From positions 352,001-416,000 of the forward strand of contig CAXRHT010000002.1 in assembly GCA_964230645.1 (NCBI GenBank): 64,000 nt of DNA, in the 5' to 3' direction. The position numbers were made by a program, and so were the translations under genes. Position 1 is the first letter of the stretch. Each line of letters begins with the position of its first letter. Below, piece by piece: positions 59,250 to 62,620 of this stretch. Source of the stretch: Bdellovibrionales bacterium (GTDB lineage: Bacteria > Bdellovibrionota > Bdellovibrionia > Bdellovibrionales > JAGQZY01). Under the pieces are notes generated by a model, which made no database searches, had not been told where the DNA came from, and saw nothing but the letters and a program-made list of their open reading frames with translations.

Positions 59250-60638
59250 CTACTCGTACTTTTCTTTCATCTTATAGTTTCTTGCTAGGAGAGCGAATAT
59301 CCCACTGACTCCTAACATCAATACCGCAAAGAAAAGAAAAAAGTTTCCACTCACACTTTCGGCTTCATGGGCTCCGATAAATTTAGACGCCACAGCCACG
59401 TACATATTTCCAAGAAAGGTGGTTAACATCCAAAAACTCATGATGGTTGATTTCATATTTTTGGGCGCTTGGGTATAAGCAAACTCAAGTCCCGTGATAG
59501 AAATTAAAACTTCCGCAATTGTGATTGTTACGTAGGGAAAGAACTGCCAGATAATATTGATTCTCTCGCCAAGAACAAGCCCCTCGGCGATTTGCCCTTC
59601 AATCACGTACTGAATGATGGCCACTTGCAGAAAAGAAAATGCAGCAATCACCATTCCAACACCCATCCTGCGTAGTGGGGTAAAATCCCAAAACTTCTGT
59701 ACGGTTGGATACACACCAAAAACGAAAAGCGGGATTAGAATCATCACAAGCCATGGATTGAGAGCTTGCATAGCTGCCGGTTTTAACTCAAAACCCATCA
59801 CCATGGGGTCCATTTGCAGAGCTTGTAAAACCCAGGTGGAACCATGTTGATCAAAAAGAGCCCAGAAGACCGGGACGGCTGTTAAAAAAATCGCCATGAT
59901 AGAAAAAACGGCTTTCACCCCTTGCACAACCTCTTGGGAGTGATCTTTAAGAGCGCCATCAAGAAACTTTTTACCGGGCTCGCGATTTCTGAAAGCTGAC
60001 ATAACAACACGTGGAACGGAGTCAGGGTTTTTACCAGTGGGCGCTTTGATGTCGTATTGTTTTCTTCCCATCCAAAAAACGATGGTCGCAATCAACATCA
60101 ACACACCCGGAATTCCAAAGGCCACAGAGGGACCAACAAGATCAAGCAGATAAGGGGTCAGCATAGTGGAAGTGGCTGAGCCTAAGTTAATGATCCAGTA
60201 AAACATATTGTAAAACCGAGTCAGCCCTAGTTTATTATCAGGATGGAATTGGTCACCACCAAAGGCCGACACACAAGGTTTGATTCCCCCCGACCCGATG
60301 GCAATCAAGCCAAGCCCCCAGTAAAGACCCGCCTCATTTTCCCATAGTGCAATCACTCCATGACCAATACAGTAAACAATCGAGAGCCATAAAATGACAT
60401 GAAATTTTCCGAAATAACGATCGGCGAGATAGGCCCCTGCCAGTGGAGTTAAGTAACAGCCTGCTACAAAGATATGGTACACTTCAGTAGCAAAACCGGC
60501 CTCTATGGCCAGATATTGCACCATAAAGACTGTAAGGATAGTGCGCATCCCGTAAAAACTAAAGCGTTCACAGCCCTCGTTTCCAATAAGATATTTTATC
60601 TGAGGAGGAAATTTACCCGTGTTATGAGATGCTGCCAT
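59250..60638 (-). CDS. POT/PTR proton-dependent oligopeptide transporter
   Basis: NEGCERFSFYGMR, GGIKPCVSAFGGDQF, GLEFAYTQAP. Confidence 0.93.
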   Translation of the reverse strand: MAASHNTGKFPPQIKYLIGNEGCERFSFYGMRTILTVFMVQYLAIEAGFATEVYHIFVAGCYLTPLAGAYLADRYFGKFHVILWLSIVYCIGHGVIALWENEAGLYWGLGLIAIGSGGIKPCVSAFGGDQFHPDNKLGLTRFYNMFYWIINLGSATSTMLTPYLLDLVGPSVAFGIPGVLMLIATIVFWMGRKQYDIKAPTGKNPDSVPRVVMSAFRNREPGKKFLDGALKDHSQEVVQGVKAVFSIMAIFLTAVPVFWALFDQHGSTWVLQALQMDPMVMGFELKPAAMQALNPWLVMILIPLFVFGVYPTVQKFWDFTPLRRMGVGMVIAAFSFLQVAIIQYVIEGQIAEGLVLGERINIIWQFFPYVTITIAEVLISITGLEFAYTQAPKNMKSTIMSFWMLTTFLGNMYVAVASKFIGAHEAESVSGNFFLFFAVLMLGVSGIFALLARNYKMKEKYE

Positions 60639-60641
60639 AAA

Positions 60642-61988
60642 TTAAACTCCGTGCCCCACGGCTTTTTTCAAAGGTTTTTGTAAGATAAAAATTCCCACTC
60701 CCGCAGCGACACCGAGGATGAGACAAAGAGTAAAAAACTCAGACTTGGTCATGGCGGCGTAGAATGTGCCTAGGTAACCACCAAAGTAGTTACCCAGTCC
60801 CGTAGTAAAAAACCACCAACCCATCATCATACCGACAAGTCTTGGAGGAGCCACTTTCGTTACCAGAGATAAACCTATGGGTGAGAAGAAAAGCTCTCCA
60901 ATCGTTACAATAAAGAGCATGGGGACAAACCACAGGAAACTGATCATCGTTGCGCTGGTAAAGCCTTGAGTAATATAGATAAGGAAAATAAATCCTGAGC
61001 CCATAAGCATACAGCCCGCAGCCATTTTGGCGATACTGGACATTTGATTACTCCCCTGTCTCTCCCATCTCTTCATTAAAATCGGAGCAAATATAAATAT
61101 AAATAGAGGATTAAGGGACTGCAGCCATGTCGAAGGGATTGTTAAACTTCCAACCGACCAATCGGTATTATTAGTCGATAAAAGCTGAAGTGTATTACCT
61201 TGTTGCTCGAAAACACCCCAAAAAACGATATTCGCAAGTGAAAGGACAAAGAAACCTGCAATGGCTTTCCATTGTTTTGGTGTTAAAGGAATTTTCTCTT
61301 TTTTGGTTTTGGATTCTTTGTTTTTTTCAAAAGTTGTTTTAGGTAAGTACTTTTGACCAAAGAGGTAAACAAGAAGACCGAGAACCATTCCGACTCCGGC
61401 TGCGGTAAAGCCGTAGTGCCAGCCGTAGATCTCTCCGAGAGTTCCGCATACAATGGGAGAAAATATAGCTCCTAAATTGATTCCCATATAAAAAATCGTA
61501 AAGGCTCCATCGCGGCGTGGATCACCCTCTGGGTACAAGCCCCCCACCTGTGTTGAAATATTGGGTTTAAAAGCTCCGTTTCCAAAGATAAGAAATACGA
61601 GAGCCAATAAGAATAGAGATTCAAAAGCCATTAGAAAATGTCCAATGGTCATTAAGACTCCACCTAATATAATAGAGTATTTTTCACCAATATATTTATC
61701 GGCAAGCAGCCCCCCTAAGAGAGGCGTGCAATAGACTAAGAATGTATAAAGACCATAAATTTGGGAAGCCAAGGGTTGTACACCCAAGCCCCCGTAAAGG
61801 GCTTCGATATATTCAAAACCCATAATGTACTCGCCACTTCGAGCATTGATAATGAGCTCTTTGGTCATATAAAGTATTAACAGGGCTCGCATGCCGTAAT
61901 AGGAGAATCTCTCCCACATTTCAGTAAAAAATAGAACGTATAGGCCGATGGGGTGCCCAAACAGGGTCTTTTGCTGTGTCTCTGTCAT
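60642..61988 (-). CDS. POT/PTR proton-dependent oligopeptide transporter (DtpT-like)
   Basis: FGHP.GL, EMWERFSYYGMR, FYMGINLG, GELFFSPIGLS. Confidence 0.95.
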   Translation of the reverse strand: MTETQQKTLFGHPIGLYVLFFTEMWERFSYYGMRALLILYMTKELIINARSGEYIMGFEYIEALYGGLGVQPLASQIYGLYTFLVYCTPLLGGLLADKYIGEKYSIILGGVLMTIGHFLMAFESLFLLALVFLIFGNGAFKPNISTQVGGLYPEGDPRRDGAFTIFYMGINLGAIFSPIVCGTLGEIYGWHYGFTAAGVGMVLGLLVYLFGQKYLPKTTFEKNKESKTKKEKIPLTPKQWKAIAGFFVLSLANIVFWGVFEQQGNTLQLLSTNNTDWSVGSLTIPSTWLQSLNPLFIFIFAPILMKRWERQGSNQMSSIAKMAAGCMLMGSGFIFLIYITQGFTSATMISFLWFVPMLFIVTIGELFFSPIGLSLVTKVAPPRLVGMMMGWWFFTTGLGNYFGGYLGTFYAAMTKSEFFTLCLILGVAAGVGIFILQKPLKKAVGHGV

Positions 61989-62187
61989 GGAACTCTCTTG
62001 TTTTAGTTAAGTTGTGATTTTCTACCCTCGCCGACGCCTTTAATCCAGAATTTCCTATCGCGTCAAACAACGATAAATAGAGAAATGACAAGGTTTGTGG
62101 TCTTTTCACAACACTTAAAGACTCCCCATGAGCCTATGACCAGAAATCAGCCTACAAAACACACAAAATCAGGGATATTGGAGATAT

Positions 62188-62219
62188 AAAAAAAGCCCGC
62201 TTTCATTCAAGCAGGCTTT
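62188..62219 (-). terminator. terminator downstream of the histone gene
   Basis: aaagcc-c-gctt/aagc-a-ggcttt stem with an A run; extra hairpin gaaggcc/ggccttc at 62241-62259. Confidence 0.65.
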
Positions 62220-62271
62220 GGTAAAAATTCGCTGAGTAAAGAAGGCCTTGGAGGCCTTCATTTAGCCAAGA

Positions 62272-62511
62272 CTACGACATAAAGTCGTGAGCACGAACGG
62301 TTTTACGTCCATTGCTTTTTGCTCTTTGAGCGGCCTGGTCAACGTACCAATGAAGGATAGAGTTTGCTCCCTCTAAGGCATCAGCAGCCACATTTACGCC
62401 ATGGGCTTTTAAAGCTTCTTTGAACTTGCTTTGAACAACAATTACTTCGCCTTTTTTCTTAGCGGATGTTTTTTTCTTAGCTGCTGCTTTTTTCTTCTTC
62501 TTTTTCGCCAT
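62272..62511 (-). CDS. bacterial histone-fold protein with lysine-rich N-terminal tail
   Basis: VIVVQSKFKE...NVAADAL...RAKSNGRKTVRAHDF resembles bacterial singlet histones (Bd0055 and Leptospira type, RKTV..D motif); AAGGAG RBS. Confidence 0.88.
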   Translation of the reverse strand: MAKKKKKKAAAKKKTSAKKKGEVIVVQSKFKEALKAHGVNVAADALEGANSILHWYVDQAAQRAKSNGRKTVRAHDFMS

Positions 62512-62620
62512 TATCTAACTCCTTTTTTGAACATGAAATGGTACGAACCTAAATATTGTTGGATATTTAGATTCTTATCAACTTTAAAAAAAAGTAACGC
62601 ATGGTCGAAAGTCGAGCTGC

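What the first reader, a model, noticed from the sequence alone, without database searches (positions are those of the whole stretch)
62272..62511. Bacterial histone carrying a eukaryote-like lysine-rich N-terminal tail
Seen: the 79-aa ORF has a strong RBS and its own terminator. Residues 3-20 (KKKKKKAAAKKKTSAKKK) contain 12 Lys plus a Thr-Ser pair, and precede a histone fold ending RAKSNGRKTVRAHDF. Known: Bdellovibrio Bd0055 is an abundant nucleoid histone with essentially no tail; the RxTxxxxD ending is shared with Leptospira and face-to-face-type prokaryotic histones. Inference: this tailed bacterial histone could increase DNA compaction or bridging, or be regulated by acetylation or phosphorylation, which would give a tail-based chromatin system in a bacterium.
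Basis: partly seen in the sequence, partly recalled or inferred. Interest (0 to 1): 0.8.

Follow-up and report, generated by a model that had tools for sequence, protein, structure and literature searches.

The report
Lysine-tailed face-to-face bacterial histone
This is a real gene for a small bacterial histone with a lysine-rich front tail that likely grips DNA by charge, but such tails are already reported as common in this histone family and the same kind of tail sits on many unrelated proteins of this bacterium, so it is an ordinary new member and not evidence of a eukaryote-style histone code.

Summary
Observation confirmed: 62272-62511 (minus strand) encodes a 79-aa protein with a 20-residue tail (12 Lys), a Shine-Dalgarno site and a terminator hairpin. 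The fold is a face-to-face (FtF) alpha3 histone: best sequence and structure match is Leptospira HLp (9QT0, rmsd 0.8 A), and the tetramer residues R63/N67/R69 are invariant in 121 sequences. It is not a tailed Bd0055: the genome (Bdellovibrionales by its relatives) has a separate tailless Bd0055-type histone and a ZZ histone. Positively charged tails on bacterial FtF histones are already published (Schwab 2024), and this scan found them before on other DNA. 'Eukaryote-like' is weak: the tail is K/A/T low-complexity, 0-38 residues long among relatives, without H3/H4 motifs, and the same repeat decorates uS11, IF2, topoisomerases, Rho and CTP synthase here. Within the order long tails track the genome-wide load of such repeats; across phyla they do not. 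No modifying enzyme is a neighbour; SET and ZZ genes do not track the tail. Most likely an accessory DNA-wrapping tetramer with H1/HupB-like electrostatic arms. The tetramer was not modelled (tool unavailable); tail function is untested.

The parts
62272..62511 (-). Coding sequence of the 79-aa tailed face-to-face histone (stop codon included)
   Evidence: homologues
62452..62511 (-). N-terminal tail, residues 1-20; 12 Lys, net charge +12, predicted disordered
   Evidence: pLDDT 53-55; charge
62275..62451 (-). Alpha3-type histone fold, residues 21-79, with FtF tetramer residues R63, N67, R69 and the R69-T71-D76 motif
62519..62524 (-). Shine-Dalgarno AAGGAG, 7 nt before the ATG
   Evidence: AGGAG also aligned in all 5 sequences
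62553..62581 (-). Sigma-70-like promoter candidate: TTGATA, 17-18 nt, CAATAT/AATATT
   Evidence: 3 sites found against 2.7 expected, so the scan alone is no evidence; TTGATA plus a similar hexamer 17 nt later is seen in 4 of 5 aligned loci (read by eye)
62237..62264 (-). Hairpin just after the stop codon; not seen in the 4 relatives aligned
62183..62219 (-). Intrinsic-terminator-like hairpin with U-run, separating the histone gene from the downstream POT transporter gene
   Evidence: hairpin plus T-run at the same place in 3 of 4 relatives (read by eye)

Best explanation
The gene encodes a face-to-face-type bacterial histone that is predicted to form a ring-shaped tetramer wrapping about 60 bp of DNA without sequence specificity, and its lysine-rich tail likely works as a flexible electrostatic arm that tightens DNA binding. 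Shown: the gene, its signals, the fold assignment by sequence, the conserved tetramer residues, the tail's make-up and variability, and that the genome also carries a tailless Bd0055-type histone, a ZZ histone and three HU/IHF genes. Predicted: the fold and the tail's disorder (AlphaFold2 monomer). Inferred by homology to HLp and HTkC: tetramer and wrapping. Inferred from charge and from HupB/HupS precedent: four tails add +48 to a core of +2 per monomer, enough to neutralise roughly 40% of the phosphates of 60 wrapped bp or to reach linker or neighbouring DNA, so the protein would compact DNA more than tailless HLp. The tail is of the H1/HupB lysine-repeat kind that this lineage attaches to many nucleic-acid-binding proteins; what matters is likely its charge, not residue positions. 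Because 26 of 40 relatives searched lack a match, it is likely an accessory chromatin protein next to the Bd0055-type histone. Bulk lysine acetylation may weaken binding, as for HupS, without a dedicated code.
For: Best PDB match HLp by sequence (E 1e-7 against 2e-4 for HBb) and structure (TM-score to target 0.95, rmsd 0.8 A). HLp tetramer residues R49/N53/R55 (PMC12701072) align with R63/N67/R69, invariant in 121 of 121 sequences; the Bd0055-type paralogue has S and D at the first two places. Tails vary from 0 to 38 residues on a conserved fold (83 distinct proteins: 48 with 10 or more residues, 20 with 5-9, 15 under 5); those of 10 or more are 44% K, 25% A, 11% T, 7% R, 5% S. In the 31 closest sequences identity to the query is 0.66 in the tail against 0.87 in the fold, with gaps only in the tail. 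Recalled H3/H4 motifs are nearly absent (ARK[STA] 2, ARTK 1, GKGG 0, SGRG 0 of 121). 24 ORFs of this genome, the histone included, have such a K-rich window; of 19 such ORFs scanned, 14 have Pfam families: uS11, L21, a KOW protein, IF2, Rho, TopA, topoisomerase VI B, SWIB, sigma-70, pseudouridine synthase, DNA alkylation repair, CTP synthase, aldehyde dehydrogenase, E1 dehydrogenase. In the order, genomes with a long-tailed FtF gene hold a median of 44 KKK[AST][AST]KK-coding matches (n 12) against 5 (short tail, n 3) and 5.5 (no FtF match, n 26). HupB's lysine-repeat tail is needed for nucleoid association (PMC5676037, abstract); acetylation lowers HupS DNA binding (PMC11229371, abstract).
Against: No tetramer model could be made. 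HLp and HTkC end at the Phe after the motif, and PMC12701072 and the HTkC preprint place the C-terminal residue in the tetramer interface; the HTkC preprint says a C-terminal extension would disrupt that salt bridge, and this protein has two extra residues. Across 68 genomes of several phyla, tail charge does not correlate with the genome-wide repeat count (Spearman -0.09, p 0.45): some have 27-38-residue tails and no match to the repeat pattern, so there the tail is histone-specific. Within the order there are exceptions (G040 long tail with 7 matches; G037, G003 no FtF match with 51 and 34), and kin are not independent. The first five residues MAKKK are 90% or more conserved, which could be a specific recognition site. 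The genome encodes SET, Sir2 and HDAC-family proteins. No expression or binding data.
Confidence: 0.68

Rival explanations
1. The tail is a regulated signalling platform: specific lysines or the Thr-Ser pair are modified by dedicated enzymes and read by a partner such as the co-encoded ZZ histone, giving a tail-based chromatin system in a bacterium.
For: The genome has a ZZ histone whose Cys/His positions match the published profile at 7 of 8 sites, one SET, one Sir2 and one HDAC-family gene. ZZ found in 9 of 12 long-tail genomes. MAKKK is conserved at the N-terminus; after Met removal (recalled rule) it would start Ala-Lys, like the Ala-Arg of H3 (recalled).
Against: ZZ also occurs in 15 of 26 genomes without an FtF match and SET in 9 of 26, against 6 of 12 long-tail genomes. 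Sir2 and HDAC families ring in 10 and 9 of 14 control genomes. None of 86 flanking proteins scanned is a SET, acetyltransferase or deacetylase; one is a Ser/Thr kinase, beside a 9-residue-tail gene. Thr15 and Ser16 are kept in 24% and 15% of 121 sequences. Schwab et al. found the ZZ binding pocket not conserved and judged tail binding unlikely.
Confidence: 0.08
2. The tail is a nearly neutral by-product: this lineage tends to grow lysine-repeat extensions on exposed protein ends, and the histone works the same without it.
For: The same repeats occur on metabolic enzymes with no obvious DNA role (CTP synthase, aldehyde dehydrogenase, E1); the tail label changes at least 15 times on the tree of 81 cores; 35 of 83 relatives have under 10 residues; HLp works without a long tail.
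Against: 44 of the 45 closest proteins found with the tailless core as query keep a basic tail of 10 or more residues; D and E are under 1% of tail residues, which suggests selection on charge; some lineages have long tails without the genome-wide repeats.
Confidence: 0.14
3. The protein is not a stable homotetramer: the two-residue C-terminal extension weakens the face-to-face interface, so it acts as a dimer or pairs with the Bd0055-type histone, and the tail makes up for the lost wrapping.
For: C-terminal carboxylate contact described for HTkC; a Bd0055-type paralogue with 32% identity is in the same genome.
Against: R63 and N67 stay invariant although 45 of 88 FtF-motif singlets have more than one residue after the motif's Asp; bacterial dimers lack these residues.
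Confidence: 0.1

Closest known systems
HLp, face-to-face histone of Leptospira perolatii (PDB 9QT0-9QT2; PMC12701072)
   Same: Alpha3 histone fold (rmsd 0.8 A over 56 residues, 39% identity), tetramer residues R49/N53/R55, RD clamp, DNA-contact residues S14, K15, K17, K21 (here S28, K29, K31, K35).
   Different: HLp has about 7 residues before the fold and is the only histone of its cell; this one has a 20-residue, 12-Lys tail, two extra C-terminal residues, and coexists with two other histone classes and three HU/IHF genes. No SMC/MAP neighbourhood.
Bacterial FtF histones with positively charged tails (Schwab et al. 2024, PMC11390915)
   Same: Same family and same feature: tails described as common, mostly positive, without conserved sequence.
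   Different: That paper places Bdellovibrionota FtF histones mainly in class Bacteriovoracia; this one is in a Bdellovibrionia lineage. Its supplementary figures 13, 19, 20 could not be seen and may already include it.
HBb/Bd0055 bacterial dimer histone (PDB 8CMP, 8FVX; PMC10627809)
   Same: Alpha3 fold, RKTV loop.
   Different: Dimer, lacks the Arg/Asn tetramer pair and a tail; the genome's own counterpart is a separate 64-aa gene (G000:C3, L003).
HTkC archaeal FtF histone (PDB 9F2C; bioRxiv 10.64898/2025.12.06.692711)
   Same: FtF fold (rmsd 1.2 A) and conserved interface Arg.
   Different: Archaeal, tailless, 28% identity.
HupB / HupS lysine-repeat tails on HU (PMC5676037, PMC11229371)
   Same: K/A low-complexity tail on a nucleoid protein; working analogy for charge-based binding and its tuning by acetylation.
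   Different: C-terminal, much longer, on an HU fold; not homologous.
Eukaryotic H3/H4 and Asgard histone tails
   Same: Basic, disordered, N-terminal to a histone fold.
   Different: No H3/H4 motifs, little Gly or Arg, length not fixed; the fold is not nucleosomal.

Membership tests
Face-to-face (FtF) alpha3 histone | Histone fold with short alpha2 and truncated alpha3 | tested here: met
   Helices 27-35, 43-66, 74-78; ungapped match to HLp
Face-to-face (FtF) alpha3 histone | RxTxxxxD motif | tested here: met
   R69, T71, D76 invariant in 121 of 121
Face-to-face (FtF) alpha3 histone | Dimer-dimer residues Arg and Asn (R41/N45 of D4GZE0; R49/N53 of HLp) | tested here: met
   R63 and N67 at the same spacing, invariant (definitions)
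Face-to-face (FtF) alpha3 histone | Predicted or observed torus-shaped homotetramer | not tested
Face-to-face (FtF) alpha3 histone | Wraps about 60 bp of DNA | not testable with these tools
   Needs MNase, TPM or structure; shown for HLp in PMC12701072
Bacterial dimer histone (HBb/Bd0055) | Lack of the Arg/Asn tetramer pair | tested here: not met
   Both present; the paralogue P0124 lacks them
ZZ histone | N-terminal C4 + C2H2 zinc finger | tested here: not met
   No Cys in the protein; the ZZ histone is another gene
Eukaryote-type tailed core histone / histone code | Position-conserved modification motifs of H3/H4 | tested here: not met
   Recalled motifs in 0-2 of 121 tails; tail length 0-38
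Eukaryote-type tailed core histone / histone code | Dedicated writers, erasers or readers linked to the tailed histone | tested here: inconclusive
   SET, Sir2, HDAC and ZZ genes are in the genome but SET and ZZ do not track the tail, and none is adjacent in 86 flanking proteins
Eukaryote-type tailed core histone / histone code | Tail modification in vivo | not testable with these tools
   Needs mass spectrometry

The most novel reading that the evidence does not exclude
This lineage runs a three-histone chromatin (DNA-bending dimer, tailed DNA-wrapping tetramer, ZZ-finger histone) in which the ZZ finger binds the conserved Ala-Lys-Lys-Lys N-terminus of the tailed histone and the genome's SET, Sir2 or HDAC-family enzymes switch that binding: a reader-writer histone-tail system evolved in bacteria independently of eukaryotes and Asgard archaea.
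Probability: 0.06. Interest if true: 0.88.

Novelty: new member of a known kind. Interest (0 to 1): 0.27.

Why it matters
As a finding it is ordinary: the family and its basic tails are published. It is a useful study object, because the HTkC preprint (Dec 2025) names HLp and HTkC as the only functionally characterised FtF histones and neither has a long basic tail; my five paper searches listed no bench study of a bacterial FtF tail. Two observations add a little: three histone classes coexist in one Bdellovibrionia genome, and within that order the histone tail goes with a genome-wide load of lysine repeats, which points to a charge-based role. If instead the tail proved to be written and read, it would be an independent origin of histone-tail signalling.

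Tried and rejected
Pfam scan of the protein: no histone family found. Tetramer prediction: tool not available, no result. RNA evidence: no RNA holder listed, so nothing on expression; codon usage is only a weak proxy (97th percentile of 3206 putative genes, 91st of length-matched windows). Internal start giving a tailless form: none in this gene; many relatives have a Met at the fold start, not followed up. Upstream 12-bp inverted repeat as an operator: not conserved in 4 relatives. Conserved operon with modifiers or SMC: not found; only the POT transporter downstream is kept, in 4 of 4 genus members scanned. SET or ZZ co-occurrence with the tail: not seen. Genome-wide repeat load as a general explanation of tail length: holds in the order, fails across phyla. 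Horizontal transfer from Planctomycetota, suggested by one starred branch: holding the family's seven sequences together is not rejected (p-AU 0.154). Long proteins among the profile hits: P0207 is a BRCA2-repeat false hit; P0208 and P0241 look like single odd fusions or mis-calls. Supplementary figures of PMC11390915 could not be read.

Full report
1. Observation. The minus strand of 62272-62511 encodes MAKKKKKKAAAKKKTSAKKK followed by a 59-residue domain ending RAKSNGRKTVRAHDFMS. Residues 3-20 hold 12 Lys and the Thr-Ser pair, as stated. AAGGAG lies 7 nt upstream of the ATG. A terminator-like hairpin with a U-run lies 53 nt after the stop (z -4.65), a second hairpin directly after it (z -2.98). 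A sigma-70-like site at 62553-62581 is no commoner than chance by the scan (3 found, 2.7 expected), but TTGATA and a similar second hexamer 17 nt on are seen in 4 of 5 aligned loci. The neighbours are an outer-membrane beta-barrel gene upstream and a POT-family transporter downstream. The gene is therefore likely transcribed alone (inference). There is no in-frame start between tail and fold.

2. The fold. Pfam misses it. In the PDB the best sequence match is HLp of Leptospira perolatii (E 1e-7), then HBb/Bd0055 (E 2e-4). AlphaFold2 on a 121-sequence alignment gives a low-confidence tail (pLDDT 53-55) and three confident helices with a one-turn alpha3; Foldseek ranks HLp first (rmsd 0.8 A, TM to target 0.95), then HBb and HTkC. 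The FtF class is marked by an Arg and an Asn at the dimer-dimer interface that bacterial dimers lack (PMC11390915, sections 7 and 8 read; PMC12701072, results parts 1-2 and discussion read). Here R63, N67, R69, T71 and D76 are invariant in 121 of 121 sequences. One caveat: the HTkC preprint (passages) says a C-terminal extension would disrupt the interface salt bridge, and this protein has two residues after the Phe; 45 of 88 FtF-motif singlets also have more than one residue after the motif's Asp.

3. The organism and its other histones. The closest genome records are titled Bdellovibrionales, Bdellovibrionia or Pseudobdellovibrionaceae (best 80 of 331 shown), so the window is likely from class Bdellovibrionia. 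The genome (3.78 Mb, 99.6% complete) has two more histone-fold genes: a tailless 64-aa Bd0055-type protein and a 165-aa ZZ histone whose Cys/His positions match the published profile at 7 of 8 sites, plus three HU/IHF genes. So the right contrast is not a tailed Bd0055 but a second class beside it. FtF-type matches (E 5e-12 or better) were found in 14 of 40 relatives, 5 of 12 in the same genus; the other 26 include incomplete genomes, so this is 'not found with this query'. In 12 of the 14 a weaker second singlet-sized match was also seen (not checked one by one), and a ZZ domain in 10 of 14.

4. Is the tail known? Yes. Schwab et al. [quoted passage not shown] Their supplementary figures 13, 19, 20 could not be seen and may include this lineage. 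PMC11789641, PMC11764897 and the Asgard preprint 10.64898/2026.07.02.735847 were seen as passages only and added nothing on bacterial FtF tails. Five searches listed no bench study of such a tail; subscription journals are mostly not covered. This scan's own index has 71 findings with these words in at least 58 genomes; the 8 shown reached the same class (unchecked notes, not evidence).

5. How common and how conserved? With the full query, 115 of 121 sequences have 10 or more residues before the fold, but that search favours tails. With the tailless core, 44 of 45 close hits still have them. Further out it is less uniform: among the best 150 of 171 representatives, 88 were FtF-motif singlets (62 doublets, longer proteins, C-terminally extended or motif-less rows set aside), of which 43 have 10 or more N-terminal residues and only 27 a clearly basic tail of that length (database starts unverified). 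In genome loci, with starts chosen by best Shine-Dalgarno match, 83 distinct proteins from 95 loci have tails of 0-38 residues: 48 of 10 or more, 20 of 5-9, 15 under 5, two of these cut or unassigned. Tails are K, A, T, R, S with under 1% acidic residues. Identity to the query in the 31 closest sequences is 0.66 in the tail and 0.87 in the fold, with gaps only in the tail; T15 and S16 are kept in 24% and 15% of 121. Recalled H3/H4 motifs occur in 0-2 of 121. Only MAKKK is conserved. On a tree of 81 cores (60 columns, poorly resolved) the tail class changes 15 times, at least 6 forced by well-supported branches for the long class.

6. The control that matters: the rest of the proteome. 24 ORFs in this genome, the histone included, have a 20-residue window with at least 10 Lys, at most one acidic residue and at least 5 A/T/S/P. 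I scanned 19 K-rich ORFs chosen from the two lists of that call: 14 carry Pfam families (uS11, L21, KOW, IF2, Rho, TopA, topoisomerase VI B, SWIB, sigma-70, pseudouridine synthase, DNA alkylation repair, CTP synthase, aldehyde dehydrogenase, E1 dehydrogenase) and 5 none, three of which begin with 60 residues of H1-like repeats. A DNA pattern coding KKK[AST][AST]KK occurs in 41 of 41 genomes of the order, with 0-3 control matches each: median 44 in the 12 with a long-tailed FtF gene, 5 in the 3 with a short tail, 5.5 in the 26 without a match. Kin are not independent and there are exceptions (G040, G037, G003). Against this reading, 68 further genomes of several phyla show no correlation (rho -0.09; 2 loci without a usable tail dropped): several carry 27-38-residue tails and no pattern match. 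So the lineage-wide habit explains the tail's character here but not tails in the family as a whole.

7. Modifiers and readers. The genome has one SET, one Sir2 and one HDAC-family gene; the last two families are widespread in control genomes. SET is in 6 of 12 long-tail, 1 of 3 short-tail and 9 of 26 no-match genomes; ZZ in 9 of 12, 2 of 3 and 15 of 26. Of 86 flanking proteins scanned (out of 106 from 54 chosen loci; the longest or most distant were left out), 50 had a family at E 1e-12 and the other 36 were rescanned at 1e-4: no SET, acetyltransferase or deacetylase, one Ser/Thr kinase beside a short-tail gene. Acetyltransferases elsewhere in the genome were not surveyed.

8. Mechanism. Most likely (0.68): a homotetrameric ring that wraps about 60 bp like HLp (inferred), with four disordered tails adding +48 to a nearly neutral core (+2 per monomer) and binding wrapped, linker or neighbouring DNA by charge (inferred), like the lysine-repeat tails of HupB and HupS (abstracts of PMC5676037 and PMC11229371). 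It is likely accessory to the Bd0055-type histone. Codon usage leans towards that of ribosomal genes, a weak hint of good expression. Rivals: neutral tail (0.14), dimer or mixed dimer (0.10), written-and-read tail (0.08).

9. Verdict. Real gene, correct description, known family, known feature: new member of a known kind, interest 0.27. The open question, what such tails do, is real and testable with this protein, but many equivalent candidates exist.

Noticed in passing
L003:1483-1677 (-), G000:C3: Tailless 64-aa Bd0055/HBb-type histone gene downstream of a long ORF that looks like NAD-dependent DNA ligase (name recalled from sequence, not scanned).
   Followed up: partly
L002:1234-1731 (+), G000:C2: 165-aa ZZ histone (Bd3044-like); with the other two genes this gives three histone classes in one genome.
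   Followed up: partly
L120, L122, L127 (G000:C2:94147, C2:1255062, C3:263553): Three ORFs of 287, 283 and 108 aa that begin with long K/A/T repeats and have no Pfam family; likely H1-like DNA-binding proteins.
   Followed up: partly
L121 (G000:C2:773298-773822, -): 175-aa protein with a lysine-repeat N-terminal part fused to a SWIB/MDM2 domain (residues 102-174).
   Followed up: partly
L131 (G000:C2:1096869-1098773, -): Topoisomerase VI subunit B in a bacterium, with a lysine-repeat C-terminal tail; a topoisomerase VI A gene lies next to an FtF histone gene in L065.
   Followed up: no
L125, L126, L132: Metabolic enzymes (aldehyde dehydrogenase, CTP synthase, E1 dehydrogenase) with lysine-rich N-terminal extensions; unexplained.
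   Followed up: no
L004-L083, fold start: Many relatives have an in-frame Met right at the start of the fold (EMLL), which could allow a tailless second product; absent in the window's gene.
   Followed up: no
P0140, P0145, P0152, P0161: FtF-motif histones without an N-terminal tail but with an acidic C-terminal extension of about 35-60 residues.
   Followed up: no
P0125-P0134: Doublet proteins of about 120 aa with two FtF-like folds are the top profile hits.
   Followed up: no
window 62545-62574: AT-rich 12-bp inverted repeat between the promoter-like hexamers; not conserved in four relatives.
   Followed up: yes
window 59250-61988 (-): Two similar-sized transporter genes in tandem downstream; the nearer is POT family by Pfam, the farther looks alike but was not scanned.
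   Followed up: partly
tree: The window's genus groups with four Planctomycetota-type sequences, apart from other Bdellovibrionota FtF histones; transfer not shown (p-AU 0.154).
   Followed up: partly
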